64,000 nucleotides of DNA from Trypanosoma brucei (taxonomy: Eukaryota): contig CH464491.1 in the NCBI GenBank assembly GCA_000002445.1, positions 2,464,001 through 2,528,000 of the forward strand. Direction: 5' to 3'. The notes beneath the pieces are model-generated. The model had not been told where the DNA came from and made no database searches. It saw only the letters and a list, made by a program, of their open reading frames with translations. A program made the position numbers and the translations under genes. Shown here in pieces: positions 7,360 to 58,806 of this stretch (positions are counted from its first letter, which is position 1; every line of letters begins with the position of its first letter).

Positions 7360-9114
7360 GTGCCTCAGTTATTGGCGGGGGGCAGTGATCAAGCAAGAAG
7401 GAAACAATTGGCGATGGATGTTTATCGACAAGCAAGTGAAATTGTGCGGGCTGTGCGTGAAGGAACCGGCACTGCCAAAGCGCTGTGTTTGCGTAAGGAA
7501 ATGCAGAAGAAGCGCCAAACGTACGCTGTTGTGTGCGAGACTCTGCGGCATTATGACCTTCTCCAGGATGTCCTCGAGCAAGCAGAATTCTTTCAATATT
7601 ACCCACGGGCCAATAGAGATTTTGCGATTTGCATGGCTTATGACGCTGTGCTTGGAAAGGGAGTCAACACCAACCGTGATACGACCGCGCAGGCTATTCA
7701 AAAGTCGGTGTCCTATCTTCAGGAGGCATACGAACGTGTGAAGAAGCACCATGTTATTCCCCCACGCGCCGGGGAGCTATTGACAGACGAGGAAGCTGGC
7801 CCCTGTGCACGCACCGGCGATCATAATAATGATGGGGGAAGGGTCAAACACAACGGTGTTGATGGCGGCTCGCTTGGGAAACATTTTGTTTCTGATGGTG
7901 AAGGTGCCGGTGACAACACCCAGGGACTGGGTTGTCTGATTCCGCGTTATGCGCGAGTGAACACGCTGAAGATTGATGTGGACAGCCTGGTGGAACGTCT
8001 TCGCCGTGCCTCCGCGAAACGCGAGCGTAACAATACGGAAAACTGTACAGGAAACGATCATAGTAGGCGCGATCATCGACATCGTGCAGCTGGAATTCGT
8101 GTACTGCCACCCTTTACCTTGGATCCTGTTGTACCGTCACTGCTAGTTTTCCCACCAGGTACCGATCTACACGCCCATCCGGCCGTTCGAAGTGGACAAC
8201 TTGTGCTACAGGACCGTGCATCGTGTCTTCCTGTTTGTGTGCTCCTTAATGCCGTGGAGGTTATCACGTCCTTCTCTGCTTCTGGAGAAGGTGAAGGTGA
8301 TAGCAAACCGGCTGAACCATTGGAATATGTTGTTGACGCCTGTGCGGCTCCTGGGAATAAGACAACTCAGCTGGCAGCCCTGGGTGCGCCTCATGTGAAG
8401 ATAATGGCGATTGAACGTGACGACAAGCGAGCTGAGTTGTTGAGGCATCGCGTGCAGAGCTTGGGGGCCGCTGATTACACAAACGTGGTTAATATGGACT
8501 TTCTGAAGATGGCACAAGACGATCGTGAGGTGACGGAAGGAATTTTGCTGGACCCAAGTTGCAGTGCCAGTGGCGTGCTGACAAGAGTGGATGTGGCCCT
8601 TTTGCGGAAGCAATGCGTTGCTGTGGATGGCAGCGGTATCTACACTAACGATGTTGTTCGTCAAGAAACTGCTGAGGAAGGGGTGAGCGAGACCGCTGTT
8701 GGTGGGGAAGTGGGCACCATAACTGCAGAGGCTCAAGGAGTCGGGTTTGCAAGCAACATGGAGCGCGTGATGGGCCTTGCCCGGCTTCAGCGCAAATTAC
8801 TTGCCCACTCACTTCTTTCCTTTGACAATTGTCGCACGGTTGTGTACTCCACATGCTCAGTGCATGAGGCAGAAAACGAGGAGGTAGTGCGGCAGGTTCT
8901 ACAGGACGAGCGGGTACAGGCTCGTGGGTGGGCACTTAGCAACATCATGCCGACGACGTGGCGGACGCGTGGGTGGAGGAACGACAGTGATACGTTTCCA
9001 CTTGAGTACACCATTCGGTGTGACCCCGAAGTGGACGCAACCAATGGTTTTTTTGTCGCTCGTTTCGACCGTGTTGTGGCGACGCCGCAGAAGAGGTCGA
9101 AGAAGAAGCGGTGA
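7360..9114 (+). CDS. NOL1/NOP2/Sun-family RNA (cytosine-5) methyltransferase, NSUN5/Rcm1-like
   Basis: SAM-binding motif DACAAPGNKTTQLA. Motif IV LLDPSCSASGV with the Cys. Motif VI VVYSTCSVHEAENE with the catalytic Cys. C-terminal GFFVARFDRV is typical of the Sun family. Confidence 0.85.
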   Translation: MPQLLAGGSDQARRKQLAMDVYRQASEIVRAVREGTGTAKALCLRKEMQKKRQTYAVVCETLRHYDLLQDVLEQAEFFQYYPRANRDFAICMAYDAVLGKGVNTNRDTTAQAIQKSVSYLQEAYERVKKHHVIPPRAGELLTDEEAGPCARTGDHNNDGGRVKHNGVDGGSLGKHFVSDGEGAGDNTQGLGCLIPRYARVNTLKIDVDSLVERLRRASAKRERNNTENCTGNDHSRRDHRHRAAGIRVLPPFTLDPVVPSLLVFPPGTDLHAHPAVRSGQLVLQDRASCLPVCVLLNAVEVITSFSASGEGEGDSKPAEPLEYVVDACAAPGNKTTQLAALGAPHVKIMAIERDDKRAELLRHRVQSLGAADYTNVVNMDFLKMAQDDREVTEGILLDPSCSASGVLTRVDVALLRKQCVAVDGSGIYTNDVVRQETAEEGVSETAVGGEVGTITAEAQGVGFASNMERVMGLARLQRKLLAHSLLSFDNCRTVVYSTCSVHEAENEEVVRQVLQDERVQARGWALSNIMPTTWRTRGWRNDSDTFPLEYTIRCDPEVDATNGFFVARFDRVVATPQKRSKKKR

Positions 9115-9660: not shown

Positions 9661-12594
9661 ATGGCCGTCGGACTCTCATCGTCCAAAGGTGTTTTGGCAC
9701 TACTACGAGAATCAGACTCGGATGTGCTGCAGTTTGCGTTGAAGCGCCTGCGACCCTTGGTGGACACGTATTGGTGTGAGATAAGTGATGACCTTCCTTT
9801 AATTGAGAGTCTGAGTGAATCGAGTGATTTGGCAGAAGAAACGCGGGCCCTCGCTGCTCTTATTGCTTCGCATGTTTACTTTCACCTTGGTGCGTATAAT
9901 GACTCTGTGCATTGCGCCCTCGCTGCCGGGCCCGCGTTCAGCTATGTCGAGCGCTCACTCTTCACTGACACCATTCTCAGTTGCTGCATTGACAAATTTG
10001 TGGAGTACCAACAGAAGCCAGAAGGCGCGCGTGAAGAACTCGACCCTCGCCTTGAGTCGCTTTTCACAGCCCTCACCAGCAAATGGATTGGCCAAGAAGG
10101 CATGCCAGTGAAGGAACTTGTTGGATTTACCATTCGTGCACGACGCCTGGACTTTCTTGAAAAGGTTCTGCGTCAGCACATCAAATCTACCAAGTCTGCG
10201 GCGATCTTGAATTTCACATTCGAGGTGGCGAGTGTTCTTCTACGTGATATCGCTTTCCGACGGGAAATTTTAAAACTTCTTTCCGTTTTGTACGCACAAG
10301 GTGGTTTAACCACCGTCGACTACTTTTCTCAGGCACAGTGTCTTCTCTTCCTGGGAGACTCGACCGGAACTGCTGACCTTATTGAGGACCTAATCCGGTC
10401 GGGTGATAAGGCAACTGCATACCAACTCGCCTTCGATTTGCACGAGTACGGCAATCAAGAGTTTCTTTCCGCTGTTGCGGGTCTCATAGAAAAGAGGGCA
10501 ACTCTTTCTATACCCGCGCCGTCACAAGTGCAGCGGGTGGAAACGGCTACCGAAGACAAGTCCGGCAGTGGGGCCGATCATTCGACTTCGTCACAGGCAG
10601 CTGCAGGCCAGACAACGCAGGAGGGCGACAAAAAGGACATATCTGAAGTGCATCAGAAGCTTCTTTCCGCTCTTACTGGTGAGTTAACAGCGTCACTTTA
10701 CCTCCAGTTCTTGTCCGGTCAATGCAAAGCGGATAGCAATGTTCTCAACCGTATCAAGCAGACTACCGACCAGCGCAAGGCCGTGCCCCATAATGCTCTC
10801 ACAATAGCCCATGCACTGATGTACTGCGGAACTACGATTCACACATTTTTGCGCAACGATATGGAATGGTTTGGTGGTGCCACTTACTGGGGTAAGTTCA
10901 TCGCTACAGCCTCTATCGGGGCACTCCACTACGGACATGTTAATGAGGCACTCAAAATAATGGATTCATATCTCCCTAAGGACAACATCGGGGTGCTCCC
11001 ACACTCGGAGGCGGGTTCGCTTTATGCTCTTGGACTCATTCATGCCCCCGTTGGCGTGGGCCGCAATCAGGAAATAATTCTTTACTTGAAGGAAATGCTT
11101 CGCAAGTTCAGCGCAAGTGAGCACATTATTCACGGCGCATCGCTGGGCATCGGCCTTGCAGCCATGGGGTTGAAGGACGAGAAGTTGCACGATTCCCTCT
11201 TCACCTGTGTGGGCGGATGTGATGCCGTGGCCAGTGAAGGAGCGGCGCTTGGTATCGGTTTGCTCATGATGGGAAGCGGCAACTTGGGCGCCATTGGAAA
11301 CCTCAGGGCCCTCGCTTCTGAGGATAACCAAAAAGAAAAAACTATCCGTGGCATATCCATGGCTATGGCGCTGATGATGTTGGGTCGTGAGGATGAGTGC
11401 TGGTCTACGGCGAACGAGCTCCTCGAAGACTCCGATCCATGGGTACGGTTGGGTGGTTGTTTCATGCTCGGCTTAGGTTACGCAGGGGCTGAAAACACAA
11501 AAGTGTTGGAACGCCTTCTTAGTGTAACGGTGAAGGACACCTCCGATGACGTCCGCCGAAACGCTGCTACGATGATCGGATTTCTCACAATAAAGGATCC
11601 CGCATTGTGCGTGGAGCTGACCCGCGTGCTTGTGGACAGCTATAACCCACACATAAGATATGGTGTAGGAATGGCGCTTGCCGTCGCCGCTGCGGGAACT
11701 GGAATGCCAGAAGTTATTGATATACTGTGGGGACTGAAAGATGACATTGTAGATTTTGTTCGTCAGGGAGCGTACATTGCCCTTGCTCTGGTTATGGTCC
11801 AAGTAACGGAAGTGGAGAATCCAAAGGTGAAGGAGCTACGCGATATTTTTACTAAAATAATCGCGGGCCGCAAGGAAGATATGTGCTCCAAGTTCGGTTG
11901 CATTATAGCCACAGGTCTCTTAGACGCAGGGGGGCGCAACTGCACCTTTGCTCTTCATCGGCAGCGGCATCGTCTCGATAAGGCTGTTGTGGGCATGTTT
12001 GTATTCCTGCAGCACTGGTACTGGTTCCCGTATCTCCTGATGATCACACTAGCCATGCGTCCAACCTGTTTCATTGGCCTTAACAGCGACCTTGAGGTGC
12101 CAGAGTATGTCTTCAAATCCAATGCACCCGCAAGTCGCTTCGCCCTCCCTAAGAGTGTTTTGGCTGAGAAGAAAGAAGCAAAGGCCGCTGCTGTCAAGGC
12201 GGTGATCCTGTCTACAACAAAGAAAGAAGAGGAGTTTGTACGCTTAAAGCGCTCGGCGGTGGCTGGAAAGAATCAAGGAACGGGAGGGACTGGTGGTGCC
12301 GCTAATGCCGCAGCATCGCAATCCGGCGCCACCAAGGAGCAGGAAACGGAAAAGAAGAGGGAGCCGGAAGCTAATTTCGTGATACTATCGAACCCGGCCC
12401 GTATAACCGCACGCCAGTTTGCTGTCATTACTCACGACGTTGACAAGCGGTTCGTACCACTGAAGGAAAATCCTTCGTCTATATGCCTTCTGCGGGACAC
12501 AAACCCTGCGGAAGGAAAACCCAAGGTCATAACGGACTTGGGATGGAACAGCAGTGATGACGCGCCACCGCCAGAACCGTTTACATGGCCCTAG
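9661..12594 (+). CDS. RPN2: 26S proteasome regulatory subunit RPN2 (PSMD1)
   Basis: 977-aa ORF. Repeated PC (proteasome/cyclosome) repeats: GASLGIGLAAMG, GAALGIGLLMMGSG, GGCFMLGLGYAG, RYGVGMALAVAAAGTG. C-terminal K/E-rich tail. Length and architecture fit Rpn2. Confidence 0.9.
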   Translation: MAVGLSSSKGVLALLRESDSDVLQFALKRLRPLVDTYWCEISDDLPLIESLSESSDLAEETRALAALIASHVYFHLGAYNDSVHCALAAGPAFSYVERSLFTDTILSCCIDKFVEYQQKPEGAREELDPRLESLFTALTSKWIGQEGMPVKELVGFTIRARRLDFLEKVLRQHIKSTKSAAILNFTFEVASVLLRDIAFRREILKLLSVLYAQGGLTTVDYFSQAQCLLFLGDSTGTADLIEDLIRSGDKATAYQLAFDLHEYGNQEFLSAVAGLIEKRATLSIPAPSQVQRVETATEDKSGSGADHSTSSQAAAGQTTQEGDKKDISEVHQKLLSALTGELTASLYLQFLSGQCKADSNVLNRIKQTTDQRKAVPHNALTIAHALMYCGTTIHTFLRNDMEWFGGATYWGKFIATASIGALHYGHVNEALKIMDSYLPKDNIGVLPHSEAGSLYALGLIHAPVGVGRNQEIILYLKEMLRKFSASEHIIHGASLGIGLAAMGLKDEKLHDSLFTCVGGCDAVASEGAALGIGLLMMGSGNLGAIGNLRALASEDNQKEKTIRGISMAMALMMLGREDECWSTANELLEDSDPWVRLGGCFMLGLGYAGAENTKVLERLLSVTVKDTSDDVRRNAATMIGFLTIKDPALCVELTRVLVDSYNPHIRYGVGMALAVAAAGTGMPEVIDILWGLKDDIVDFVRQGAYIALALVMVQVTEVENPKVKELRDIFTKIIAGRKEDMCSKFGCIIATGLLDAGGRNCTFALHRQRHRLDKAVVGMFVFLQHWYWFPYLLMITLAMRPTCFIGLNSDLEVPEYVFKSNAPASRFALPKSVLAEKKEAKAAAVKAVILSTTKKEEEFVRLKRSAVAGKNQGTGGTGGAANAAASQSGATKEQETEKKREPEANFVILSNPARITARQFAVITHDVDKRFVPLKENPSSICLLRDTNPAEGKPKVITDLGWNSSDDAPPPEPFTWP

Positions 12595-14654: not shown

Positions 14655-14705
14655 ACCAGTAATTTTTTTTTTGCTTCTTCTTTGTTTTGCTACTTTATGC
14701 AATAG
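14655..14705 (+). promoter_or_regulatory. Polypyrimidine tract plus AG: probable spliced-leader acceptor and polyadenylation determinant for the downstream large gene
   Basis: gcaccagtaatttttttttttgcttcttctttgttttgctactttatgcaatag. Tracts of this kind are the established signals for trans-splicing and coupled polyadenylation in kinetoplastids. Confidence 0.5.
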
Positions 14706-17700
14706 TAGTAATAAGGAAGGGGGTGCTAAAGTTGAAAAGTTTCTTAATCGTGATTCAACAACCAAGCGGAAGCAGAAACACCGCTCAGAGTTGCGAACAA
14801 ACGTGTGCATTCCTAGTGACGAAAGAAAACAAAAGGTTTACATTGGAGAGGCAGCATTGCATATACTTAGAGCAAGAACTCATGCTAGAGTTTAGGCCCC
14901 AGCATACACCGGATTCAGCGGCTCACAAAATCAACCAGGTAGCATGTGCAACTCCAGACTCGGTGCCTACGAGCGTCTCCTGGCGCAAGGAAGAGGAGAC
15001 ATCCGGAGAGGTGACTAGGGCAACAATGATTTCATCAGATGCGCGAGAGGTGTCGCACATTGCGCGCATGGCGTCAGAACGGGGGCGAGTCGACATTTCT
15101 CAGGCACGCAATAGTTCACCTAGAGGAACAGCTACCGCGGTTAACGCCGTTGAGGTTGAACTTCAGCGGCGGCTTGATGTAGTGAAGGCGGCTGTTGAAA
15201 AGGCTGACAAGGTGGTCGACGTTGCACGCGGAAGATGTGCAGAGGTGATATCCCGAGAGGAACGTCGACGCGCCATGGTTAAGCTGGAAATTTCGAAGTT
15301 GATTCTTTTCGTTGGACGGAACTACAACATACTTGACGAGTTAGAGCTTACATTGGGTAGTGTGCTCGAAGTATCCGAACTTCCTGTTTACCACAGCGAC
15401 AAATATTCTGAAGTTCCCTTTTCCGCGCGGGAGATACCTCCATATTTGTCTCTGGAAGATCTGGAGCGGGCTAACAGAGAAATGATGGCCCGGTTGATGA
15501 AAGAGCGAACCAAGCGGGCAAACGATCCGCCTCATGCCTCGTTGCTGGGGAAACGGGTCAACTCTAATTTGGATGAAGTGATGTGGCTCATAGACTCCCT
15601 TGAGGAACCTCCCTGTTCTGAAGAGCAGTTCGGGGAAACTGTCGGGACAGGTGAAGAAGAAGAATGTGAGAAGTCACCTGTGGCTGTGTCACAGCGAAGG
15701 AGTCAGGCTATAACTTCTACCAGTGCTGCGAGAGAGACTAGGACGAGCGGAGTACGCGGGGCATCCTCGTCAGGGAACGCAACTCTTTGCTCGTCACGCG
15801 TGGAGATGGACAGCAGCATTGTTAACTTCTCCTTAAGTAGTGAGTCGTTTCCCATTGCCACGGGGGAAACCAGGGATCTGAAGCTGCTGAAATTCATGTA
15901 TGATGCTGCTAAGGCTACTGTGGAGGAAGCTGCGGCGGCGGAAGCGTTTGGTGCGTTCAGTGGCGCGCAACTCGGAACGACCTTTCGAAGCACGTCCAAT
16001 AGGTTGCAGCCCGCGAGAGACTCTTTCTGCACGCAACAATTATCCGGTGCGCTGTCGGGCACGATTGGTCTTAACTCACCCAGTAAGATTGACAGCGGGT
16101 GCAAAGAGCTGTCGTTTACTTCTAGTCGGCCGCCATCGGGGATGTTTGAAGACCGGGAATCATTTAGTTTGGAGCAGCATATTTCAGATAGGGCGCTACC
16201 GACGGCGGCAGCACCGTGGCGAGGTTCACATAATCCAAGTACAGTCGTTATAGATCATCTTGATCCCGAAGTGTTCACCGTTCTGGGGGAGCTGTACAAA
16301 GCCTATGACTACAGGCAATTTTTCCGCGATATCCAAAACAAGCACCTAATGAGGGGTAAGACGGATGACGAGTACGAGGCGGAAATAGAAAATCTGCTTA
16401 CACAGCACATGGATGACAAGCGCAAACGAGCTGCTAACAGTGTTAAGGACGAGTTGATCATCAAAAAATGGGGAGGGGTGGCCAGCGAAGCATCTCGGGC
16501 ACCGACACCAAGACAAGAGGTTGAGTTTGTTTTACCAGCTCGTCGGGAGGAAGAGGAGGAAACAGAGGAAGCAGAGAAAAAGTCCTGGTTGCAGTCAGTG
16601 GTAGAAAGTATGTCGCCACTTTCCTCCGCGCCGACCCCAGTGGAGGAAGTGCCGTCCCCATCTTTTCTCTCACAAATCCCTGTCGATGCGTTGGTGTTTG
16701 CGAGAGACATGAACAACGGTGTTGTTTTCTTCATTAGAGGTCGAAACGAGGAAGCTTCGAACGATGAAAAGACTCTGGAAGGTAAACGAAAGGGGAAGAA
16801 AGGTAAGGCGAAAAAGGATGGTGATCAAGAGGATCGCAATGCAGCAGGAGGTCCTCCAGTATATGACAGTTACACCCTGTATGTGACCAATCAGTCAGAT
16901 ACGAATCTGACGGTGGTGGTGGACATTGAGAAGACTAAGGCCCGCAAATTGAGAATGAGTGCACACGTGAATTATGCAATCCCGCAGGAGTGCATCGTTA
17001 TAGCTCCACCACCCGGGAGTCTCAAATCACTACTTACATTCTGTCCCAAAAAAAGGCAACAAATTGATTTTGGTGAAATACTTAGCTTTCGTGAGGGGAC
17101 GGCCAGGGGTGAGGTAGGCGGTACAGTAGGCGAGGAAGAAAAGCTTCAACTAAAAGCTTCATCTGGTGTATCCGCTCGAACTAAGGTTTCGGGTACTACC
17201 AAGGACTCCACAGTGAAAGAAGCTGGCGAGCCGGTAGCCGCCACCGAAGTTAGTAGCGAACGAGAGACCGCCGGCACCAGAGCTGAAGTCAGCGATGCGG
17301 CACCCACTACTCAGCCTTCAGTGACTGCCACCACAAAGGAGGAGGTGTCCCATAAGGAAGCGGACGCAGGTGAAGTGGTGAAGATCCTCGATGAGGAAGC
17401 TGACAGCTATGTAGCAGTTGGAGGTGGTAGGCGTACTAAAAAGAGGGCCGGTTGTGCGGCGATCTTATCAAAGTACCCTTCTACACGGGGTGCGGAGTGG
17501 GAGGCCAATGCACCTGAGAGCACCACCGCTGAGAGCGCTGGCTTTACTGAAGAAGGAGAGGCTTCGATACCCCCTGGTCCACCGCGTGGAGAAAGGGAAC
17601 CGAAGGGTGAAGAGGCCTCATCGCGTTCAAGAGCACGAGCGCGCGAAGCGAGTGGAGCAGCGAATAGGGCCTCTTTCCAGCAAGCAGTTGGTCGTACCCG

Positions 17701-20590
17701 TGAAACAGTTGAAAAGGTTTGGCCCACAGGCACTGCGCCTGTTGATCACTGGGGTGTGCCCCTCTCTAACGAAGAGGATGAGGCATTTGAAAAGAATTGC
17801 GTTGCGTTGACCATACTGCAGGGTGGCATGTGGTCAGAAGTGGACCCTTCGCATGGGATGGTTGGTGAAGAACCATTTGGTGGGTCGGGTGAAATTCCGA
17901 AGGAAGAAGCTGACAAACTCCTTGATACAAGTAATGCGGATGAAGAGGAACTGGTTAGCAAAATTCTTAACGCTCCCACCTCTGGTGACATGCACACACT
18001 GTCTGGTGGGCAACTGACTGAAATGGATAGCGCCGAGGGGATGGCAGCGGCCTTTCTCGGGCGCATCGCAGCCGAAGAGCATTTGGATGCGAGTAATTTT
18101 GAGCGCGGAGGAGTTTCGCCCCGTCGGTTGCCCTCTGACAGTTCGGGGGTGCCACAAACGACTTCGCACGCTGAGCAAGTCGGCGACGAGGCTGCTGTTT
18201 CTTTAGCTAGAAAAGGCAAACGTGTGAAGAATGCTACTTCCTCTGCTGATGGCGAACATACACCCAGATCGCCTACCAGGGCGCGAAGAGGAAGTGGAGA
18301 GAGAGAAGGTGTATCCCGTTCTAGCGCTGTAGGGTCACAAAGACTCAGTCCTGGTGCTAAAGGGGGAAAGGGTCGAAAGGAAGGGGTTGAAGGCAGCGCA
18401 GCTCAAGGTGGTGAAAGTTCTATTTCAACCAATGAGACCTCTGAAGCCAGGACGGGCGTTGGTTCCGGGAGAAGAGCTGATGGCAAGGTGGGAGCTGATG
18501 CCGGAAGAAGAGCTGATGGCAAGGCAAGGGCTGATGCCGGAAGAGGAGCTGATGGCAAGGCAAGGGCTGATGCCGGAAGAGGAGCTGATGGCAAGGCAAG
18601 AGCTGATGCCGGAGGAAGAGCTGATGCCAAGGCGGGTGCTGGTGCCGGAGGAAGAGCTGATGCCAAGGCGGGTGCTGGTGCCAGGGCGAGGACAAGTTCT
18701 GATGCTCGCGCAAGCGCTGATACCGGGGAAACCTCTGATACTGAGGCAAGCATTGGTGCCGGTACCTCTTCAAGAGAGGTTGAACACGGTGGAGTGAGGA
18801 AGAGCAAACTTCGGAGCTTGTCGAAGACGTCAGTCTACGGGAGTGCGAAAATGAAGAGGTACAGCCTAAGGACTCCACCCACCAGCGGCCGTTTCCAAGC
18901 AAGTTCAGGCACAGTGACAGATGGTGAACAACACGGTGATACCACTGCAACCGAAAGTTGTAGAGGAAGCGACAGCACTTCCCACACCCCACGCGGCCAA
19001 CCGTCCCATAGGGGGGTCCTCAGCGCCACGAGAAGCTCCTTTATTGCATCAGTCGATGATAAGTCATCGTGGAGGTCGTCAGTAACGCCTCGTGCCGATA
19101 GTAAGAGCGTTTCAGCATCAGCGCTGAAACATCTATTGGACCAGGTTAGGGTGAGTGAAAAGAAGGACGCAGAGGCACCAACGGGCTTCATTATGGAAAA
19201 GGGGGTTACAGAATATAGTTCACTGTTGCGCAAAGGTGTGCAGGGCGTACAACGCCACCTCTTTCCGGATCGTCAAAAAGTATGCACCAAGTCAAACACC
19301 CACGGCCGTGTGGCTGTGTACGTTCCCGACGACATGGTTGCAGGCACGCTAGTATCGACCGCTGCCAGGGACAATTACTATGGGAAGATGTCGAGACTGT
19401 CCGGCGCATTAACCTCCAATGGTCAAGCCGAAAACATTGTAGAATCACTTCGTGATGATCTTCACGACGTGGCGAAGACGTGCTTCGTCCGCAACAGGAG
19501 GGGGAACCAGAGAGCAGTATTCGGACAGCAAGGAGGTACTGGAGTCTCTGGAGGTAGCAAACGTGCCTCCAGTTATGCGGATAAGGCAGGTATCACATCC
19601 CTCCCCTTACTTTGTGCTCCTGATGTTGTGGAAGAGGTAAGAGACCTCAAAGTTGCGGGGGAAGAGGCACGGGACCTCTTCATTCGAGACCCCACTCGCT
19701 ACGACTGTGTCATCGACGACATCGTTCAACGTGCCATTCAGAGGGTGAACGGGGACGATACCAACTTCACGGCTCTAACAGGAGGCAGAAACGAATTCAG
19801 CATCAAAGGAACTGGGTTAGGGGGGGCACGTGAGACATTTGTATCCTCCAACTCCACCACTGGCGGTTCCCTCTCGGGTCACGGTGTCGGTGCAGTGCGA
19901 GGTTTCAGAGATAACAGAGGGAGGGATGTTGCGCACTCAAACGGCTTGGGTGCTTCTCCCCGTGGGGGCCCGAAACGTGGCGGCGGGTTGGAAGCTCAGT
20001 TGGCAGGAAGTTTCCAGCGGCTCCTCGACGAGCAAAACCGAGCGAAAAGGATTATCGCGTACGTGCTTATGGAAATGAGGCGCATGTGGAGGTTGAGGAG
20101 GCTGGAGGGTGACATCGCCCTCCGCGCGGCTGTGGATCGCTTTGTGTTCCGCTCACTTTCCTTCACCTGGCGCATCGAGCGCCGCCGAGTCCTCAACCTC
20201 AACAAACTAATCAATCTGCTGGACCGTCGCACAGGTCGCGTGAAGGGCTGGGTGCCGTTCTATACCAAAGACAATGTTTTAGTTGACCATTACCTTTGGG
20301 AACCCGTGCCACCGGAGCTCTCACACCAGATGAAGGTTGTCCATCATGCCATGTGTTTAGCACGGCGGCAGGAACTGCTTCCTCTGCGAACGGTGCGACA
20401 TCTTTCTACGTCGGATCAAAGCTCGCACCATCTGATGTTCGGTTACTCAAGGAGGTTGCTAGACCCCTTTAGAAACACAGCAGTGCAACTGAGGAATGAG
20501 AGGCGTGCACGTCATGCTGCATACTTCCAAAGGTCTTTGAGGCGCTTTTCTCCACAAACTGAATATCTGGTGGGGACGCCAAAGAACTAA
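14687..20590 (+). CDS. Large hypothetical protein (about 1900 aa) with an internal 12-aa tandem repeat array; first ATG of the ORF is probably not the true start
   Basis: A 5.9-kb ORF. Its first 60 codons overlap the upstream polypyrimidine tract (14660-14700), so the start is more likely the ATG at 14882 (MLEFRPQH) or later. Repeat array RADGKARADAGR at 18466-18715. The C-terminus is basic and helical. Confidence 0.6.
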   Translation: MLLYAIVVIRKGVLKLKSFLIVIQQPSGSRNTAQSCEQTCAFLVTKENKRFTLERQHCIYLEQELMLEFRPQHTPDSAAHKINQVACATPDSVPTSVSWRKEEETSGEVTRATMISSDAREVSHIARMASERGRVDISQARNSSPRGTATAVNAVEVELQRRLDVVKAAVEKADKVVDVARGRCAEVISREERRRAMVKLEISKLILFVGRNYNILDELELTLGSVLEVSELPVYHSDKYSEVPFSAREIPPYLSLEDLERANREMMARLMKERTKRANDPPHASLLGKRVNSNLDEVMWLIDSLEEPPCSEEQFGETVGTGEEEECEKSPVAVSQRRSQAITSTSAARETRTSGVRGASSSGNATLCSSRVEMDSSIVNFSLSSESFPIATGETRDLKLLKFMYDAAKATVEEAAAAEAFGAFSGAQLGTTFRSTSNRLQPARDSFCTQQLSGALSGTIGLNSPSKIDSGCKELSFTSSRPPSGMFEDRESFSLEQHISDRALPTAAAPWRGSHNPSTVVIDHLDPEVFTVLGELYKAYDYRQFFRDIQNKHLMRGKTDDEYEAEIENLLTQHMDDKRKRAANSVKDELIIKKWGGVASEASRAPTPRQEVEFVLPARREEEEETEEAEKKSWLQSVVESMSPLSSAPTPVEEVPSPSFLSQIPVDALVFARDMNNGVVFFIRGRNEEASNDEKTLEGKRKGKKGKAKKDGDQEDRNAAGGPPVYDSYTLYVTNQSDTNLTVVVDIEKTKARKLRMSAHVNYAIPQECIVIAPPPGSLKSLLTFCPKKRQQIDFGEILSFREGTARGEVGGTVGEEEKLQLKASSGVSARTKVSGTTKDSTVKEAGEPVAATEVSSERETAGTRAEVSDAAPTTQPSVTATTKEEVSHKEADAGEVVKILDEEADSYVAVGGGRRTKKRAGCAAILSKYPSTRGAEWEANAPESTTAESAGFTEEGEASIPPGPPRGEREPKGEEASSRSRARAREASGAANRASFQQAVGRTRETVEKVWPTGTAPVDHWGVPLSNEEDEAFEKNCVALTILQGGMWSEVDPSHGMVGEEPFGGSGEIPKEEADKLLDTSNADEEELVSKILNAPTSGDMHTLSGGQLTEMDSAEGMAAAFLGRIAAEEHLDASNFERGGVSPRRLPSDSSGVPQTTSHAEQVGDEAAVSLARKGKRVKNATSSADGEHTPRSPTRARRGSGEREGVSRSSAVGSQRLSPGAKGGKGRKEGVEGSAAQGGESSISTNETSEARTGVGSGRRADGKVGADAGRRADGKARADAGRGADGKARADAGRGADGKARADAGGRADAKAGAGAGGRADAKAGAGARARTSSDARASADTGETSDTEASIGAGTSSREVEHGGVRKSKLRSLSKTSVYGSAKMKRYSLRTPPTSGRFQASSGTVTDGEQHGDTTATESCRGSDSTSHTPRGQPSHRGVLSATRSSFIASVDDKSSWRSSVTPRADSKSVSASALKHLLDQVRVSEKKDAEAPTGFIMEKGVTEYSSLLRKGVQGVQRHLFPDRQKVCTKSNTHGRVAVYVPDDMVAGTLVSTAARDNYYGKMSRLSGALTSNGQAENIVESLRDDLHDVAKTCFVRNRRGNQRAVFGQQGGTGVSGGSKRASSYADKAGITSLPLLCAPDVVEEVRDLKVAGEEARDLFIRDPTRYDCVIDDIVQRAIQRVNGDDTNFTALTGGRNEFSIKGTGLGGARETFVSSNSTTGGSLSGHGVGAVRGFRDNRGRDVAHSNGLGASPRGGPKRGGGLEAQLAGSFQRLLDEQNRAKRIIAYVLMEMRRMWRLRRLEGDIALRAAVDRFVFRSLSFTWRIERRRVLNLNKLINLLDRRTGRVKGWVPFYTKDNVLVDHYLWEPVPPELSHQMKVVHHAMCLARRQELLPLRTVRHLSTSDQSSHHLMFGYSRRLLDPFRNTAVQLRNERRARHAAYFQRSLRRFSPQTEYLVGTPKN
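18466..18715 (+). repeat. Coding tandem repeat: about 5 copies of a 36-nt unit (RADGKARADAGR), then 2 copies of a 39-nt variant
   Basis: Unit agagctgatggcaaggcaagggctgatgccggaaga repeated head-to-tail, in frame, within the 14687-20590 ORF. Confidence 0.85.
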
Positions 20591-27000: not shown

Positions 27001-29586
27001 GTTCTTGAAATGCTATCCAAGTTATTCCGGTATGACACGAAACTTCAGGGGAAGCAGGAACTCAGTACCGCTGATCACAGGTCGTTACTTGAGCTTAGTA
27101 TGACAGACAACATTACATCCGTAGAGATTCCGCAGTACAGGGTGCGGGGGACGTTTGTTGAGTATGTGATTGAGTGCACAAAACGAAACATGACGTGGCA
27201 GGTGTTTCGGCGTTACCAGCAATTTAAGGCACTTGACCAGAGTCTGAAACAACTATGCTCACGCGGATCCTCAAGGCACTGTGACTACGGGGTCATTCCT
27301 GTCCTCTGCGGTAGCCACTGGACGGAAGTAACTAACCAGTCAATCGACCTCGTAGAAAAACGGCGGAGGCACTTGGAAATTTACCTCCGCCAGTTGCTCG
27401 TCCCGGGGAATGTATTTTATGTTGCTAAAACCGTGATTTACGATTTTCTTCACGATGGCGCGGTTCCTGCGCAGCACCAAAGGAGGGCCATACGACCGCT
27501 AATTGGCTTTGCAACGCCAGACTCGTTGGCAGACCTCCACTTGGAAAACAGGAACGGCGAAGGGAGTGCGAGCCGGTTAGGGGCGGCCTCAACTCTCAAC
27601 GATAAATCGATTTCTATGCTTGGGCCATCTGCTGTTGGTGAAAGTGATCGAGTGGATGATGGTGTCGGGGACGAAGAAGAGGAGCCCTGCAAATCACCTC
27701 CAGGAGAGACCGTAGAGAGCGGTGAGGAATGTGAAGATTTACCATCAGCTGACAACAGTGAAGCTGAGGACGTGCGTGTGCCGCCACCAGGCTCCTTGTG
27801 CAGGCAATGTAACGCTGAGTTTTCTTCTGTGCTGTATCCGCATCGTTGTTTCTTCTGTAGGCAACAGTTTTGTCGCGACTGTTTGCACCCAGTCGAACTT
27901 GAAGAAGGAGAGGTCGCTAGATCATGTGTTCAATGTTATGAAAACTTTGCTCGAAAGACCTGTAAACCCCAATATCCCCCAACTCCCATGGCTTCAACAC
28001 CAATACTTCAGTGCGCACCTGCTGGTGGTGCGTTGGACCCGTTGAACTTACTCGGTAGTACGTCCCACGTGCGAACAGATGTAACACTTTCTGACTTTAA
28101 GTTAGTTACAACTGTGGGACGTGGCACGTTTGGCAAAGTGATGAAAGTTATCTTTCGTGAAGATGGCAAGGTTTATGCTATGAAAGTGCTCAACAAGTGT
28201 GTTATTCACAAGCGGCGAATGATCGAGTACATCAGGGAGGAGAAGAATATCATGTCCTCTTTACCCTCGCATCCGTACATTGTAACATGTCACTTCGCAT
28301 TTCAGACTGACTACCATCTTTTCTTCGTACTGGACTACCTCCCTGGTGGAGACATGCACTCGCGTGTTTACCCTAAACTCAAACTAACTGAATCGGATGT
28401 CCGTTTGTATATTGCTGAACTTGTACTCGCACTCCAACATCTGCACCGTCACGACATTGCCCATCGTGACGTCAAGCTCGAAAACATTGTCTTGGGAGAA
28501 GACGGACATCTTAAACTGACAGATTTTGGGCTGGCACGCATGAATTTCTCACGGCAACGCCGTCGCAGTTTTGTGGGGAGTCCGGAGTACCTTCCGCCAG
28601 AAACGATTCAGGGGAAGTACCAAACGAAGGCTGTGGATTGGTGGAGTGCGGGGGTCATGCTGTACGAAATGCTGAGTGGGAAGACGCCGTTTTACTCGGC
28701 GTACAATTGTGAAATCTACAACAATGTGTTGAAGGCGGAGTTGGACCTCACAGCCCCGTGTTTCACGCCAGAGGCCGCCTCACTCATTGAACAACTGCTT
28801 CAAAGCCATCCAAAAGCAAGGTTGCAAGACGCAGGGGCAATAAAGGCTCATCCTTACTTTGCATCAATCGATTGGGCTGCTCTCGAAGGTAAAAAAATAT
28901 CTGCCCCCATACAGCTTGATCTTATGGGAAATGATATGAAATACATCAAATGGAAGTTCACGGCGGAGTGGGCTGTTATATACAAACCTCCTGGAGTGAC
29001 ACGTGCTACAATTGACCTTTTGATTAATCGCTTTAGTAACTTTGCTCATGTGAGCGAGGGGACGCCGCCCACGCCGCATCTGCCGATAGGGCAGCAGCAG
29101 GAAGAGGTATCTGACGGAGTGACAAACCCACCGGATATAACCGGCGTTTGGAATGTTGTCAAGGTAGAGATGCAAACGGAGGATGGAAAGATCACGCATC
29201 CTTGGGGAAGTGCAGTGTGTGGAGTGCTAGCGTACTTCCCAGAGGGTCAGTTCAGCATGCAGCTTACATCATATATGCGTCCACATTTGCGGCAACAGTT
29301 CGTGGATCGTGCCGTGAGAGAGGATCTGGTAGAAATGTGCAACTCGTACGCGGGCAGTTTCGGAAAGTATCAGATCAAGCCAGGGAGCAATATCATTACT
29401 CACAGGCTTCACGGCTGCCTCTGTCCGAATCTTACAGGAAGTACACAAAAGTATTTTTTTGAGGTTCGTGAGAGGAAAGAAAATGGGGCTAAAGTGTTGA
29501 AACTTTTTACCGCGTGTAACGCGCTCCCAGGTGAAGACATCTCCGCACAAACCGTCCTCACATGGGAACGGACGGGTTCCTGCTAA
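27001..29586 (+). CDS. PX-domain / FYVE-like zinc finger / AGC-type Ser/Thr kinase / C-terminal lipocalin-like domain protein
   Basis: PX-like region YRVRGTFVEYVIECTK...RRYQQFKALDQSL...RRRHLEIYLRQLL. Cys-rich finger CRQCNAEF...CFFCRQQFCRDC...CVQC. Kinase motifs GRGTFGKV, AMK, HRDVKLENIVL, DFGLA, SPEYLPPE. C-terminal ITGVWNVVKVEMQTEDGKITHPWG...GVLAYFPEG resembles the bacterial lipocalin-like fold. The ORF opens at 26905, but those codons overlap the pyrimidine tract, so ATG 27001 (MLSKLF) is preferred. Confidence 0.8.
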   Translation, partial: VLEMLSKLFRYDTKLQGKQELSTADHRSLLELSMTDNITSVEIPQYRVRGTFVEYVIECTKRNMTWQVFRRYQQFKALDQSLKQLCSRGSSRHCDYGVIPVLCGSHWTEVTNQSIDLVEKRRRHLEIYLRQLLVPGNVFYVAKTVIYDFLHDGAVPAQHQRRAIRPLIGFATPDSLADLHLENRNGEGSASRLGAASTLNDKSISMLGPSAVGESDRVDDGVGDEEEEPCKSPPGETVESGEECEDLPSADNSEAEDVRVPPPGSLCRQCNAEFSSVLYPHRCFFCRQQFCRDCLHPVELEEGEVARSCVQCYENFARKTCKPQYPPTPMASTPILQCAPAGGALDPLNLLGSTSHVRTDVTLSDFKLVTTVGRGTFGKVMKVIFREDGKVYAMKVLNKCVIHKRRMIEYIREEKNIMSSLPSHPYIVTCHFAFQTDYHLFFVLDYLPGGDMHSRVYPKLKLTESDVRLYIAELVLALQHLHRHDIAHRDVKLENIVLGEDGHLKLTDFGLARMNFSRQRRRSFVGSPEYLPPETIQGKYQTKAVDWWSAGVMLYEMLSGKTPFYSAYNCEIYNNVLKAELDLTAPCFTPEAASLIEQLLQSHPKARLQDAGAIKAHPYFASIDWAALEGKKISAPIQLDLMGNDMKYIKWKFTAEWAVIYKPPGVTRATIDLLINRFSNFAHVSEGTPPTPHLPIGQQQEEVSDGVTNPPDITGVWNVVKVEMQTEDGKITHPWGSAVCGVLAYFPEGQFSMQLTSYMRPHLRQQFVDRAVREDLVEMCNSYAGSFGKYQIKPGSNIITHRLHGCLCPNLTGSTQKYFFEVRERKENGAKVLKLFTACNALPGEDISAQTVLTWERTGSC

Positions 29587-32729: not shown

Positions 32730-35021
32730 ATGCTACAAAAGGAGGTATTGGGCTCAAATGCGAATTCCTCCACGGTTCTTGTAAAGGACACAGAGGCTGG
32801 AGGGGAACTCCGCGTTGTTAAGCGAATCAACGTCACCTCGTGGGCGGAATCCGATGTGGACAAAACACTCGAGACGTACAACGCTATTGCTTCGGCAAAT
32901 ATACCGAATATGGTTAAGTTGTACGTGGCCATGCGGCAGAGCTCCTCCATAAGTGTCGTGAGCTCCTACTGCCTTGGCGAGGAACTGCAGGAGTACCTTG
33001 ACGAGAAAATCTCCTGTCCTTTAGATGAGGTTACTGCCTTGAGGTGGATGCGAAATATAGCGCGGGTCGTGCAACAGGTCCACAACCTTCCCCTCAACAA
33101 CAGGGTGGCATGTTTTCATGGACCTTTAATTGATCGTATTTTTGTTGTGGACGACGGTAAAGAGGTATGCGTAGGTTTGCCACTACCACGCGTCTTGTAC
33201 TTCAAATGGCTTGAGGAGCGTGAGACGTATGGTGTTAAATTGCACCACGAATACCCACCAGAAGTTCTGCGCGGCCGGTATTATTACACCCAAGCAAGCG
33301 ATATTTGGCAGTTAGGACTCGTAGGAATGAAGTTGTTAGCAGCTAACGCCTCATTTGATCGTCGATCAGCCGCCATTCGGACACTTATTGCGTCCATGAT
33401 GAACCCCATAATGAGGAAGCGACCTAACATTGAAGAGGTTAACAGAAAATTGGGGGAAATCACACGGGAACGCAGTATCTCATGCTTGTCGTCTGCGGAT
33501 GTGAATACTCCGACATCGTATGAACGATTTCTCACTCCGCGCTCCGCAGTTATGGAGGAGCCGATCGGAATGACATCGTTGGATGAGTATGACACCTTCA
33601 CCACCGACCTTAGTAAGACGAACTTCGATGAGGTGACCCAAAGCACGCATAAACATGCCTGGCGTAACAGGCTTCAACCAAGTTGGTACAACCAAGCGAT
33701 GAAGCAATTTGAGGAGCTGCAACGGATGAACTCAACCCCGTTAACGTCAAGGTCACGCCCGGCATCACCCACGCCAGCAACTGGTGGAGCTGTATCACCG
33801 CGAGCGAGGAGAGATGCAAAGGCAACAAACGCACGGGACAGGTCGGGTGGAGCTCGGCCATCTCCCCGTCGGCGCGCGTCCTCTTCAACGCTTACCGGAC
33901 CACAAAAAAATCGAACTCTTGAGCGCGTGCCGAGCTCGGCGCGCAGGGACCTTGCGATGCCCAGAATGTTGAATAACATTCCGTCTCAGCGGTCGCGTAA
34001 TGCCCATAGGTTGGAATTGGAAGAAAAAAAGCGAAGGCAACAGGCTCTGGAGCGAGAGGCCCATGCCATGCACCGAGTTCATGAAAATAGGATGCGGGAA
34101 ATCCGTAAGAACCAAGATGAGTCCATGAAACACGATATTCGGAAGTACATCAAGCAGTGGAGAGAGCAGAGCACCGCCGCAAAAGACGATAGCACTTCGT
34201 ATAGCGAACACAATGGTGTGGCAATATTTGTTCCAAAAAATCCACCACCACCGGGGCGGTCACCAAATGTAGACACGAAAGCAAAGCAACAACCACTTAA
34301 TAGTGAAGGGGATACACACAGGAGGGTTTTCTCGGATGAACTCACGCATGCAGCGGCAGGGCCGGTGGTGCATGGAAGCACACCAAGACCCTACAGTGCG
34401 ACACGACACCCGCGGACACCACCATCAGCTACACCGAAGCGCTCAGCATCTATATACCGCATCCGTGGCATTAGCCCCAAGGTGCCGCACTCACGTGCCA
34501 ATCCCTCCGACAGATACAAGGTCACAGAAAGTGCACCCACCACCACTGTGTCGTGTGCAAATCCTTCCAGTAGCAAAAATAGTGGCACGACGGCCTACCA
34601 AACTAGTGAAACCTCGTCCGGTACATATCCGTCAGGAACGAACAGGGCGGGGCAATCAAATTCACGGACAATCTCCGTTCTGGGAGAAGACGCGACTAAA
34701 CCAAGCTGCACAGCTGGTGTGCCAGGCACTAATCGTCTCGCTGCGGAAAGTCTCAGGTGTTCTGCGGGTAGATTGCGGGAAGCACTGGAGAAACTATTAC
34801 CAACCCGCGAGTTGTTCGTTGAGACAATGGAAGTTGTAGATGCCTTCGTGGTGCGCTCAGAGATTGAGCGGTGTAACCCTCGTTTCAACACAGTGTTCAT
34901 GCACACACTTAGGAAGTTAATGAATGATGATGAACTTCTTCTTTCCGCCGTTCCGATGTGTGCGCAGTTAGTTTCGTTGTTGAGTCTGTTGCAAGGAGGC
35001 GAACAGCCTGAGGGGACGTAA
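32730..35021 (+). CDS. Protein-kinase-like protein, predicted pseudokinase
   Basis: Kinase-fold N-terminus with LRVVKRINV (a VAIK-like Lys). The catalytic loop reads CFHGPLIDRIFVVDD instead of HRDLKxxN, and there is no DFG. The C-terminal half is low-complexity, Ser/Pro/Arg-rich. Confidence 0.65.
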   Translation: MLQKEVLGSNANSSTVLVKDTEAGGELRVVKRINVTSWAESDVDKTLETYNAIASANIPNMVKLYVAMRQSSSISVVSSYCLGEELQEYLDEKISCPLDEVTALRWMRNIARVVQQVHNLPLNNRVACFHGPLIDRIFVVDDGKEVCVGLPLPRVLYFKWLEERETYGVKLHHEYPPEVLRGRYYYTQASDIWQLGLVGMKLLAANASFDRRSAAIRTLIASMMNPIMRKRPNIEEVNRKLGEITRERSISCLSSADVNTPTSYERFLTPRSAVMEEPIGMTSLDEYDTFTTDLSKTNFDEVTQSTHKHAWRNRLQPSWYNQAMKQFEELQRMNSTPLTSRSRPASPTPATGGAVSPRARRDAKATNARDRSGGARPSPRRRASSSTLTGPQKNRTLERVPSSARRDLAMPRMLNNIPSQRSRNAHRLELEEKKRRQQALEREAHAMHRVHENRMREIRKNQDESMKHDIRKYIKQWREQSTAAKDDSTSYSEHNGVAIFVPKNPPPPGRSPNVDTKAKQQPLNSEGDTHRRVFSDELTHAAAGPVVHGSTPRPYSATRHPRTPPSATPKRSASIYRIRGISPKVPHSRANPSDRYKVTESAPTTTVSCANPSSSKNSGTTAYQTSETSSGTYPSGTNRAGQSNSRTISVLGEDATKPSCTAGVPGTNRLAAESLRCSAGRLREALEKLLPTRELFVETMEVVDAFVVRSEIERCNPRFNTVFMHTLRKLMNDDELLLSAVPMCAQLVSLLSLLQGGEQPEGT

Positions 35022-58008: not shown

Positions 58009-58806
58009 TTATTCAAGTTCGCAAAGGATGCTTCGCTCCCAGCTTCCATCGATCGACAAGTCAACAAGCTCCGTGTTAACAACACTCTCCTGCTGCTGCA
58101 TACTCAAAAGAAAATGATGGAGCAAGCGAGGTGCGATAACGTGGGGAGTCGGCTCTGCCCCGCTCAATCCTCGTAGCCGGAGTTCCTCCACTAAAGACGT
58201 CGCTGCTTCGTTCGGCATCTCGCACATAACGATATCGTTGAAGTAAAGCAGATTATTACTCACATTCAGTCCCGCACCATGCATAGAGACCCAATTCCCC
58301 AGTTGAAGCCCGACGAACCCCATCTTTCGTGGTGCCACATCTCCCCAACTGTCGGACCAAACCCCAACCCTCCCTCGATGGGCGGGGATGTTGTATTCGC
58401 CCGCTACGTTAATCATAGCCTGTTCCAACACGGAACTAAACCACTCAATTGGGGAACGTGGTTTGTCAGAAGCCGTGCATTGCTTCCACAGAACCTGCAC
58501 GTTAACAATGGGGTACATAGTTACCTGCCCTGGTCCATGGAATGTGACGCCCCCTCCCCTCCTCGTCTTGACCACCTCGGCGGCACAACCCGCTTTGATG
58601 CCATTGGAAGTGTCTCGCCTGCCAATCGTGTAAACAGGAGACGAATGTTCCACAAGCAAAACAACGTTGGGGATGAGGCGAGCAGATTTGTCTCCACGAA
58701 TGTAGCGCATCTGCCTATCGATTTTCTTTCGAAAAATTGCCTCTTGCAGCCGCAGAACATCGTGGTAACGACGGCTTCCAAGGTTATACGCCCGCATTCC
58801 ATTCAT
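58009..58806 (-). CDS. lipB: Lipoyl(octanoyl) transferase LipB
   Basis: VLLVEHSSPVYTIGRRD...NGIKAGCAAEVVKTRRGGGVTFHGPGQVTMYPIVNVQ carries LipB/BPL family motifs: RGG.TYHGPGQ and the conserved Lys in MGFVGLQLGNW. First gene of the - strand unit. Confidence 0.85.
   Translation of the reverse strand: MNGMRAYNLGSRRYHDVLRLQEAIFRKKIDRQMRYIRGDKSARLIPNVVLLVEHSSPVYTIGRRDTSNGIKAGCAAEVVKTRRGGGVTFHGPGQVTMYPIVNVQVLWKQCTASDKPRSPIEWFSSVLEQAMINVAGEYNIPAHRGRVGVWSDSWGDVAPRKMGFVGLQLGNWVSMHGAGLNVSNNLLYFNDIVMCEMPNEAATSLVEELRLRGLSGAEPTPHVIAPRLLHHFLLSMQQQESVVNTELVDLSIDGSWERSILCELE

What the first reader, a model, noticed from the sequence alone, without database searches (positions are those of the whole stretch)
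27001..29586. Four-module lipid-signalling kinase: PX + FYVE-like finger + AGC kinase + lipocalin-like beta-barrel
A single ORF combines a PX-like phosphoinositide-binding domain, an 8-Cys FYVE/RING-like finger, a complete AGC-type catalytic domain, and a C-terminal segment of about 170 aa. That segment's start (GVWNVVKVEMQTEDGKITHPWG...GVLAYFPEG) resembles the bacterial lipocalin-like family. A ligand-binding barrel fused to a kinase is unusual and suggests small-molecule or lipid regulation. VPS15, another PI3P-pathway kinase, sits 22 kb upstream in the same transcription unit.
Basis: partly seen in the sequence, partly recalled or inferred. Interest (0 to 1): 0.55.

Follow-up and report, generated by a model that had tools for sequence, protein, structure and literature searches.

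The report
Trypanosome ZFK kinase, already described
The gene is the known Trypanosoma brucei zinc finger kinase ZFK, a membrane-lipid-targeted kinase that restrains parasite differentiation; its unusual C-terminal lipocalin-like barrel is real, already recorded in databases and in a 2023 paper, and still has no known function.

Summary

It is not new. The protein is 100% identical over its full length to T. brucei 'zinc finger protein kinase' Q965D1, that is ZFK (Tb927.11.9270). [quoted passage not shown] What I add is small:
- The fusion also occurs in diplonemids, where the FYVE finger is canonical. In trypanosomatids its PI3P-binding motif has decayed.
- The hydrophobic motif is FxNF with no phospho-acceptor.
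- The barrel keeps most of the signature of stand-alone Lipocalin_5 proteins.

The upstream gene is indeed a VPS15 orthologue, but sharing a trypanosome polycistron says nothing about function. Ligand regulation of the kinase by the barrel remains an untested inference.

The parts
27010..29586 (+). Complete coding sequence of TbZFK (Tb927.11.9270), 858 aa plus stop
   Evidence: ORF. 100% identity and 100% coverage to UniRef Q965D1_TRYBB 'Zinc finger protein kinase'. Gene id taken from PMC3957582.
27181..27453 (+). PX domain (residues 58-148), with R67-R68-Y69 and the R118 helix motif
   Evidence: Pfam PX 34.7 bits, above the 21.6 cut-off. RRY is present in all aligned orthologues and RRRxLE(I/V)YL is conserved. 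Nearest solved sequences are PX domains of nischarin, KIF16B and p40phox. pLDDT is 80-93 in the full-length model.
27526..27789 (+). Acidic, Ser/Gly-rich linker predicted to be disordered (residues 173-260)
   Evidence: pLDDT below 50 across 173-260 in the full-length model. No conservation in alignment A1.
27796..27948 (+). FYVE-related zinc finger (residues 263-313) with 8 Cys
   Evidence: Pfam FYVE 20.1 bits, below the 27.8 cut-off. Cys positions and FYVE-type spacing. pLDDT 85-93. The basic motif has decayed to YPHRCF, whereas diplonemid orthologues have RKHHCRRCG. The Namystynia orthologue scores 69.8 bits for FYVE.
28099..28860 (+). AGC-type protein kinase catalytic domain (residues 364-617)
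   Evidence: Pkinase 213 bits. K392, E411, D487, N492 and D505-F506-G507 are invariant. The activation loop reads RRRS520FVGSPEYLPPE. Best PDB relatives are RSK2, SGK1 and AKT2, E about 1e-64.
28861..29052 (+). AGC C-terminal tail (residues 618-681), with the NDxKY(F/I)..FTAEWA tether and the hydrophobic motif F675-S-N-F678
   Evidence: Alignments to AKT, PKN and RSK extend into this tail. F675 and F678 are invariant. The residue after the motif is not Ser/Thr in 28 of 29 orthologues.
29053..29142 (+). Flexible linker between the hydrophobic motif and the barrel (residues 682-711)
   Evidence: pLDDT below 50 at 687-704. Linker length varies from 33 to 129 residues among orthologues.
29143..29571 (+). 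Lipocalin_5 (PF13924) calycin-type beta-barrel (residues 712-854): 8 strands with one helix between strands C and D

Best explanation

Shown here:
- It has four folded modules joined by disordered linkers.
- The PX domain keeps the canonical PI3P-contacting residues R-R-Y and the helix-2 Arg.
- The two-zinc FYVE-type finger has lost its PI3P-binding basic motif in trypanosomatids. The motif is intact in diplonemid orthologues.
- The AGC kinase has all catalytic residues, a PDK1-type activation-loop Ser (S520), and an FxNF hydrophobic motif with no phospho-acceptor.
- The C-terminal 8-stranded Lipocalin_5 barrel is flexibly tethered and keeps the conserved residues of stand-alone family members.

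Inferred mechanism:
- The PX domain takes the kinase to PI3P-rich endosomal membranes, as it does in human SGK3.
- The hydrophobic motif docks constitutively in the PIF pocket, so activity depends mainly on activation-loop phosphorylation and on location.
- The barrel binds a small hydrophobic or amphipathic ligand. This either tunes kinase activity or adds a second membrane or ligand input. I put this last step at about 0.35; the rest is well supported.
For: Identity: 100% identity and coverage to Q965D1 'Zinc finger protein kinase', T. brucei. ZFK is Tb927.11.9270.

Phenotype from the literature: deletion reduces growth and raises the slender-to-stumpy rate in vitro in pleomorphs. The gene is non-essential in the kinome RNAi screen. 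The title of the original paper names PX and FYVE-related domains.

Domains. PX motifs, finger motifs, activation loop and hydrophobic motif across 29 orthologues. AGC class.

Barrel. It shares the family signature G712, W714, E720, P731, G733, G738, Y742, Q751, R757, Y780, G785, H798 and P806 with 115 stand-alone proteins. On each strand the conserved positions follow an i, i+2 pattern. That fits a conserved barrel interior (my inference).

Architecture: already published as PX-Pkinase-Lipocalin_5 'subfamily D'. It is conserved from Trypanosoma to Bodo, Papus and diplonemids.
Against: No ligand, lipid binding or localisation was tested here, nor reported in the papers I could read. The 2001 paper itself is not in the library.

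The barrel differs from stand-alone relatives at some strongly conserved positions. Family Tyr (97%) is Ser at 783. Family Arg (91%) is Tyr at 815 in Trypanosoma. W732 is specific to ZFK. Its ligand, if there is one, may therefore differ, or binding may be lost.

T. brucei and T. vivax carry HRDVKLEN in place of HRDLKPEN, and Ile in place of the tail Phe. The effect of these changes on activity is unknown.
Confidence: 0.85

Rival explanations
1. The barrel is a second membrane or lipid-anchoring module rather than an allosteric sensor. It would insert into or bind a membrane lipid, so that PX and barrel together give coincidence detection. This would replace the PI3P-binding role the FYVE finger lost in trypanosomatids.
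For: The FYVE basic motif is intact in diplonemids and decayed in kinetoplastids, while the barrel is kept everywhere. The long flexible tether of 33-129 residues would let the barrel reach a membrane independently of the kinase. Structural neighbours include lipid-binding barrels such as LBP-8, YceI polyisoprenoid binders, ApoD and a putative lipid-binding protein from Bacteroides thetaiotaomicron.
Against: Diplonemid proteins have a canonical FYVE and the barrel together, so the barrel did not arise as a replacement. No amphipathic or basic surface could be checked without coordinates.
Confidence: 0.2
2. The barrel binds no ligand. It is a protein-protein docking or autoinhibitory domain for a substrate, a partner or the kinase's own lobe, and the calycin fold serves only as a scaffold.
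Against: The barrel keeps nearly all conserved residues of stand-alone Lipocalin_5 proteins, including the polar set E720, Y742, Q751, R757, Y780 and H798. That argues the ancestral activity, binding or catalysis, is retained. pLDDT below 50 in the linker gives no sign of a fixed docked arrangement.
Confidence: 0.2
3. The barrel is an enzyme: Lipocalin_5 proteins catalyse a reaction on a small substrate. ZFK would then be a bifunctional protein and not a ligand-regulated kinase.
For: The whole family conserves a polar set (Glu, Tyr, Gln, Arg, Tyr, His) at positions with inward-facing periodicity. Some calycin barrels among the hits are enzymes, for example the OlmO spirocyclase, hydroxynitrile lyase, the nitrobindin peroxynitrite isomerase and prostaglandin D synthase.
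Against: No Lipocalin_5 member with a known activity was found by sequence in the PDB or in the papers searched. Trypanosoma ZFKs replace the family Arg at 815 and the family Tyr at 783, which would be odd for a conserved active site.
Confidence: 0.1

Closest known systems
TbZFK, zinc finger kinase of Trypanosoma brucei (Tb927.11.9270; UniProt Q965D1; Vassella et al. 2001, Mol Microbiol 41:33)
   Same: The sequence is identical over all 858 residues. The PX, FYVE-related and kinase domains match those named in the paper's title.
   Different: Nothing differs in sequence. The reviews and the paper title I could read mention only PX, the FYVE-related finger and the kinase, and not the C-terminal barrel. 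The 2001 paper itself could not be read.
PX-Pkinase-Lipocalin_5 'subfamily D' of Kinetoplastea PX proteins (PMC10380299, Int J Mol Sci 2023)
   Same: Same protein family and the same three Pfam domains. The paper reports it in almost all kinetoplastids and says it is absent from other eukaryotes.
   Different: That paper does not mention ZFK, the FYVE-type finger or diplonemids. Here the architecture is also found in Diplonema papillatum and Namystynia karyoxenos, with a canonical FYVE, and in the prokinetoplastid Papus.
Human SGK3 / CISK (PX domain plus AGC kinase)
   Same: An N-terminal PX domain is followed by an AGC kinase. SGK1, the paralogue with a solved kinase domain, is among the closest solved kinase relatives (E 2e-64). 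A designed CISK-PX construct gives a weak match to the PX region (E 0.027); the native SGK3 PX is only marginal (E 0.64). SGK3 is a working model for PI3P-dependent endosomal recruitment of an AGC kinase (established knowledge).
   Different: SGK3 has no zinc finger and no C-terminal barrel. Its hydrophobic motif carries a phosphorylatable Ser, whereas ZFK has FxNF followed by a residue that cannot be phosphorylated.
Stand-alone Lipocalin_5 (PF13924) proteins of about 140-150 aa
   Same: They are 25-40% identical to the ZFK barrel and share the signature GxW...E...PxG...G...Y...Q...R...Y..G...H...P. One relative lies in a Bacteroidetes MAG.
   Different: They are single-domain proteins of unknown function. 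ZFK barrels have W732 and S783. Trypanosoma barrels have Y or F at 815. Leishmaniinae and Phytomonas barrels carry a large internal insertion.
Classical lipocalins and other calycins (retinol-binding protein, Bla g 4, nitrophorin, nitrobindin/THAP4, FABP)
   Different: There is no sequence-level match, and no Pfam hit to Lipocalin or THAP4_heme-bd even at E of 10 or less. The single helix sits between strands C and D, not after the last strand.

Membership tests
TbZFK orthologue group | Full-length sequence identity to the published protein | tested here: met
   100% identity and 100% coverage at 858 aa to Q965D1_TRYBB.
PX domain (PF00787) | Profile score above Pfam's gathering threshold | tested here: met
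   34.7 bits against 21.6; 37.5 bits when the region is scanned alone.
PX domain (PF00787) | PI3P-contacting residues: the R(R/K)(Y/F) motif after strand 3 and the Arg of the RxxLxxYL helix | tested here: met
   R67-R68-Y69 is present in every aligned orthologue. R118, L122 and Y125 are invariant. The Lys of the PxxPxK loop was not identified.
PX domain (PF00787) | Binds PI3P or another phosphoinositide | not testable with these tools
   Requires a liposome or lipid-overlay assay.
FYVE finger (PF01363) | Profile score above the gathering threshold | tested here: not met
   20.1 bits, or 23.2 when scanned alone, against 27.8. Orthologues do pass: Papus 31.1 bits and Namystynia 69.8 bits.
FYVE finger (PF01363) | Eight zinc-binding Cys with FYVE spacing | tested here: met
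   C264, 267, 280, 283, 288, 291, 306 and 309, spaced CxxC-x12-CxxC-x4-CxxC-x14-CxxC. By my reading of the EEA1 sequence from memory, this matches the first three gaps of that finger.
FYVE finger (PF01363) | PI3P-binding motifs WxxD, R(R/K)HHCR and RVC | tested here: not met
   T. brucei has no upstream Trp-Asp motif, YPHRCF in place of RRHHCR, and RSC in place of RVC. Diplonemid orthologues have RKHHCRRCG and RVC.
AGC protein kinases | Complete catalytic residues: the beta-3 Lys, the helix-C Glu, HRD, the catalytic-loop Asn and DFG | tested here: met
   K392, E411, H485-R486-D487, N492 and D505-F506-G507 are invariant in 29 sequences.
AGC protein kinases | Closest relatives are AGC kinases, and the activation loop has the S/T-F-x-G-(T/S)-x-E-Y-x-(A/P)-P-E pattern | tested here: met
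   All top PDB hits are AGC kinases: RSK2, SGK1, AKT1/2, PKC iota/theta, PKN and S6K1. The loop reads S520-F-V-G-S-P-E-Y-L-P-P-E.
AGC protein kinases | C-terminal tail with a hydrophobic motif F-x-x-F-(S/T)-(Y/F) | tested here: inconclusive
   The tail aligns to AKT, PKN and RSK tails. F675-x-N-F678 is invariant, but the phospho-acceptor position is A/V/H/K/R/P/Y in 28 of 29 orthologues. Pfam Pkinase_C was not reported at E of 1 or less.
Lipocalin_5 (PF13924, calycin clan) | Profile score above the gathering threshold over the whole model | tested here: met
   156.3 bits against 25, covering profile positions 2-141 of 142.
Lipocalin_5 (PF13924, calycin clan) | Eight-stranded antiparallel up-and-down barrel with GxW on strand A | tested here: met
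Lipocalin_5 (PF13924, calycin clan) | Binds a small ligand in the barrel | not testable with these tools
   No coordinates were accessible for cavity analysis. No characterised family member was found.
Classical lipocalins (PF00061) and THAP4/nitrobindin (PF08768) | Profile match to those families | tested here: not met

The most novel reading that the evidence does not exclude
The Lipocalin_5 barrel is an intracellular small-molecule or lipid sensor that gates ZFK. It would couple a metabolite or lipid signal to the 'slender retainer' arm of the trypanosome quorum-sensing and quiescence decision. A ligand for the barrel would then be a direct chemical handle on stumpy formation, and on differentiation in Leishmania, where the orthologue is annotated 'differentiation inhibitory kinase'.
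Probability: 0.2. Interest if true: 0.6.

Novelty: already known. Interest (0 to 1): 0.2.

Why it matters
ZFK is one of the few kinases known to hold bloodstream T. brucei in the proliferative slender form. Its Leishmania orthologue is annotated as a differentiation inhibitory kinase, and a 2026 preprint cites it as implicated in in vivo fitness. The papers that I could read and that discuss ZFK's role in differentiation never mention the C-terminal barrel. The one paper that lists the barrel does not connect it to ZFK. Joining the two descriptions points to a concrete experiment: find what the barrel binds, and test whether pocket mutants still rescue the knockout. That is a modest, practical lead, not a discovery.

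Tried and rejected
- The search for homologous proteins with the barrel alone and with a 21-sequence barrel alignment returned nothing. The full protein is in that database, and an exhaustive HMMER scan found 675 relatives. I treat this as a limit of the word index and not as evidence of absence.
- The barrel sequence and its profile found no solved relative in the PDB. The single hit, PggH at E = 1, is noise.
- The afdb50 library was unavailable.
- Model coordinates and PAE are not exposed, so I could not examine the cavity or any barrel-kinase contact in the full-length model.
- The 2001 ZFK paper is not held.
- A search on 'DIK' was swamped by unrelated words.
The single-protein scan found one bacterial relative.
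- I rejected any functional weight for the VPS15 neighbour.
- I considered a conserved Cys/His pattern inside the PX insert (C83, H90, C91, C100, H103) as a possible metal site. I dropped it because C100 and H103 are not conserved.
Full report
**Observation.** The + strand carries one long ORF ending at 29586. The first ATG is at 27010, which gives 858 aa. Pfam finds four modules:

| Module | Residues | Score | Pfam cut-off |
|---|---|---|---|
| PX | 58-148 | 34.7 bits | 21.6 |
| FYVE | 263-313 | 20.1 bits | 27.8 (not reached) |
| Pkinase | 364-617 | 213 bits | 31.7 |
| Lipocalin_5 (PF13924) | 712-854 | 156 bits, E 6e-46 | 25 |

Scanning the regions separately gives the same calls. The C-terminal 178 aa hit no other calycin family. 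The description is therefore correct at the stated coordinates.

**Identity.** The protein is 100% identical over its full length to UniRef Q965D1, 'Zinc finger protein kinase' of Trypanosoma brucei brucei. This is ZFK, Tb927.11.9270. It was first described by Vassella et al. [quoted passage not shown] Reviews summarise the phenotype. [quoted passage not shown] ZFK showed no loss of fitness in the kinome-wide RNAi screen. [quoted passage not shown]

**The barrel is also already on record.** The precomputed Pfam annotation of every orthologue lists PF13924, and one orthologue is even named 'Lipocalin-like domain'. A 2023 paper (PMC10380299) classifies kinetoplastid PX proteins. It defines 'subfamily D' as PX-Pkinase-Lipocalin_5, present in almost all Kinetoplastea and, by the authors' searches, in no other eukaryote. 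That paper does not mention ZFK, the finger or diplonemids.

**PX domain.** R67-R68-Y69 is present in all aligned orthologues. The helix motif RRRxLE(I/V)YL, with invariant R118, L122 and Y125, is conserved. These are the canonical PI3P-contacting positions of PX domains (established knowledge). The nearest solved sequences are PX domains of nischarin, KIF16B, p40phox and SNX16, plus a designed CISK-PX construct. PI3P binding itself is inferred, not shown.

**Finger.** Eight Cys lie at 264, 267, 280, 283, 288, 291, 306 and 309, spaced CxxC-x12-CxxC-x4-CxxC-x14-CxxC. This is the FYVE layout, and the region models confidently (pLDDT 85-93). In T. brucei the PI3P-binding motif R(R/K)HHCR reads YPHRCF, and RVC reads RSC. 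Diplonemid orthologues keep RKHHCRRCG and RVC, and bodonid sequences are intermediate, for example RRYKCH. Pfam scores follow the same trend: 69.8 bits in Namystynia, 31.1 in Papus and 20.1 in T. brucei. One metagenomic clade lacks the finger altogether. 'FYVE-related' is the right term for the T. brucei finger. It probably no longer binds PI3P.

**Kinase.** All catalytic residues are invariant. The closest solved relatives are all AGC kinases: RSK2, SGK1, AKT1/2, PKC iota/theta, PKN and S6K1 (E about 1e-64 to 1e-57). The alignments run into the AGC tail. The activation loop reads RRRS520FVGSPEYLPPE, with S520 invariant, at the position phosphorylated by PDK1 in other AGC kinases (established knowledge). 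The tail keeps the NDTKYF..EFT.EW segment and an invariant F675-x-N-F678 hydrophobic motif. The residue that would be the phospho-acceptor is not Ser/Thr in 28 of 29 orthologues. I infer that the motif docks constitutively, so regulation would not go through hydrophobic-motif phosphorylation. T. brucei and T. vivax share two unusual substitutions, HRDVKLEN for HRDLKPEN and Ile for the tail Phe.

**Barrel.**
- *Model.* With a 21-sequence alignment, AlphaFold2 gives pLDDT 84.4 and pTM 0.77. The fold has eight strands and one helix between strands C and D.
- *Relatives.* An exhaustive HMMER scan of 1.84 billion representatives finds 675 relatives at E of 1e-3 or less. Most of the 150 listed are stand-alone proteins of about 140-150 aa. 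Five listed hits over 850 aa that were new to this search were scanned in Pfam, and all five are ZFK-type PX-(FYVE)-kinase-Lipocalin_5 proteins. A sixth (P0232) is an unrelated fn3 repeat protein, and P0250 (1786 aa) was not checked.
- *Taxa.* The new ZFK-type hits include the prokinetoplastid Papus and the diplonemid Namystynia. Diplonema papillatum also has the fusion. The architecture therefore predates the kinetoplastid-diplonemid split, slightly wider than the published 'Kinetoplastea only'. A stand-alone relative lies in a Bacteroidetes MAG.
- *Conserved residues.* Compared with 115 stand-alone proteins, the ZFK barrel keeps the family signature G712, W714, L716, E720, G726, P731, G733, G738, Y742, G746, Q751, R757, Y780, G785, H798, L804 and P806. 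It differs at W732, at S783 (family Tyr, 97%) and, in Trypanosoma, at Y815 (family Arg, 91%). On each strand the conserved residues follow an i, i+2 pattern, as expected for a conserved interior. This is my inference.
- *Tether.* The tether from the hydrophobic motif to the barrel is 33-129 residues and is predicted to be disordered. Leishmaniinae and Phytomonas barrels carry a large internal insertion.

**Mechanism.**
- *Shown:* the identity, the domain content, the motif states, the fold class and the phylogenetic spread.
- *From the literature:* the role as a negative regulator of stumpy formation.
- *Inferred:* PX-driven recruitment to PI3P membranes, with SGK3 as the working analogue; a constitutive hydrophobic motif; and a barrel that binds a small hydrophobic or amphipathic molecule and thereby tunes activity or localisation.
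- *Rivals for the barrel:* a second membrane anchor, a protein-docking or autoinhibitory module, or an enzyme. None can be excluded without coordinates or experiments.

**VPS15.** ORF 909..5021 (1370 aa) has a kinase domain and a C-terminal WD40 signal. All large ORFs from 909 to 55294 lie on the + strand, which fits one polycistron. Trypanosome polycistrons are not functional operons (established knowledge), so this proximity is not evidence of a shared pathway.

**Verdict.** This is a real and correctly read feature, but it is a known gene with a known, database-annotated architecture. Novelty: already known. Interest is low (0.2). The residual value is that the function of the barrel in a differentiation-controlling kinase is still untested.

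Noticed in passing
window 909..5021 (+): A 1370-aa ORF with a kinase domain and a C-terminal WD40 signal. Its best solved relatives are PIK3R4 and yeast VPS15 (E 2.7e-38), so it is the T. brucei VPS15 orthologue.
   Followed up: yes
window 32730..35021 (+): A second protein-kinase ORF (763 aa) lies 3 kb downstream of ZFK. Pfam matches Pkinase at residues 4-119 (best stretch) and PK_Tyr_Ser-Thr at 29-203. The rest of the protein was not characterised.
   Followed up: no
window 14687..20590 (+); repeat at 18465..18669: A 1967-aa ORF with no Pfam match. It lies in a region of strong positive GC and AT skew (14-20 kb) and contains a 36-bp tandem repeat of 5.7 copies at 91% identity, which would encode a 12-residue peptide repeat.
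   Followed up: no
window about 56000..62000; repeat at 59181..59531: GC skew changes sign near 56 kb, and the first large minus-strand ORFs appear at 58009..58806 and 59143..61824. This looks like the end of the + strand polycistron. A 147-bp tandem repeat (about 2.2 copies, 88-91% identity) sits where ORFs on the two strands overlap.
   Followed up: no
window 28459..28482 and 28930..28950 (ZFK residues 484-491 and 641-647): T. brucei and T. vivax alone have HRDVKLEN where all other orthologues have HRD(L/I/V)KPEN. They also have NDMKYI in place of NDTKYF in the AGC tail. These two substitutions at normally conserved kinase positions are specific to salivarian trypanosomes.
   Followed up: partly
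orthologues P0008, P0012, P0037, P0038, P0040 and P0043 (no counterpart in the window): Bodonid, diplonemid and some metagenomic ZFK orthologues carry an extra CxxC-x(12-20)-W-x5-CxxC zinc-ribbon-like element between PX and the FYVE finger. Trypanosoma has lost it (consensus).
   Followed up: no
window 7360..9114 and 9661..12594 (+): Ordinary housekeeping genes in the same polycistron: an NSUN5-type rRNA cytosine methyltransferase and the proteasome subunit RPN2. They illustrate that neighbours here are functionally unrelated.
   Followed up: yes
whole window: No tRNA genes and no Rfam family at gathering threshold anywhere in the 64 kb.
   Followed up: yes
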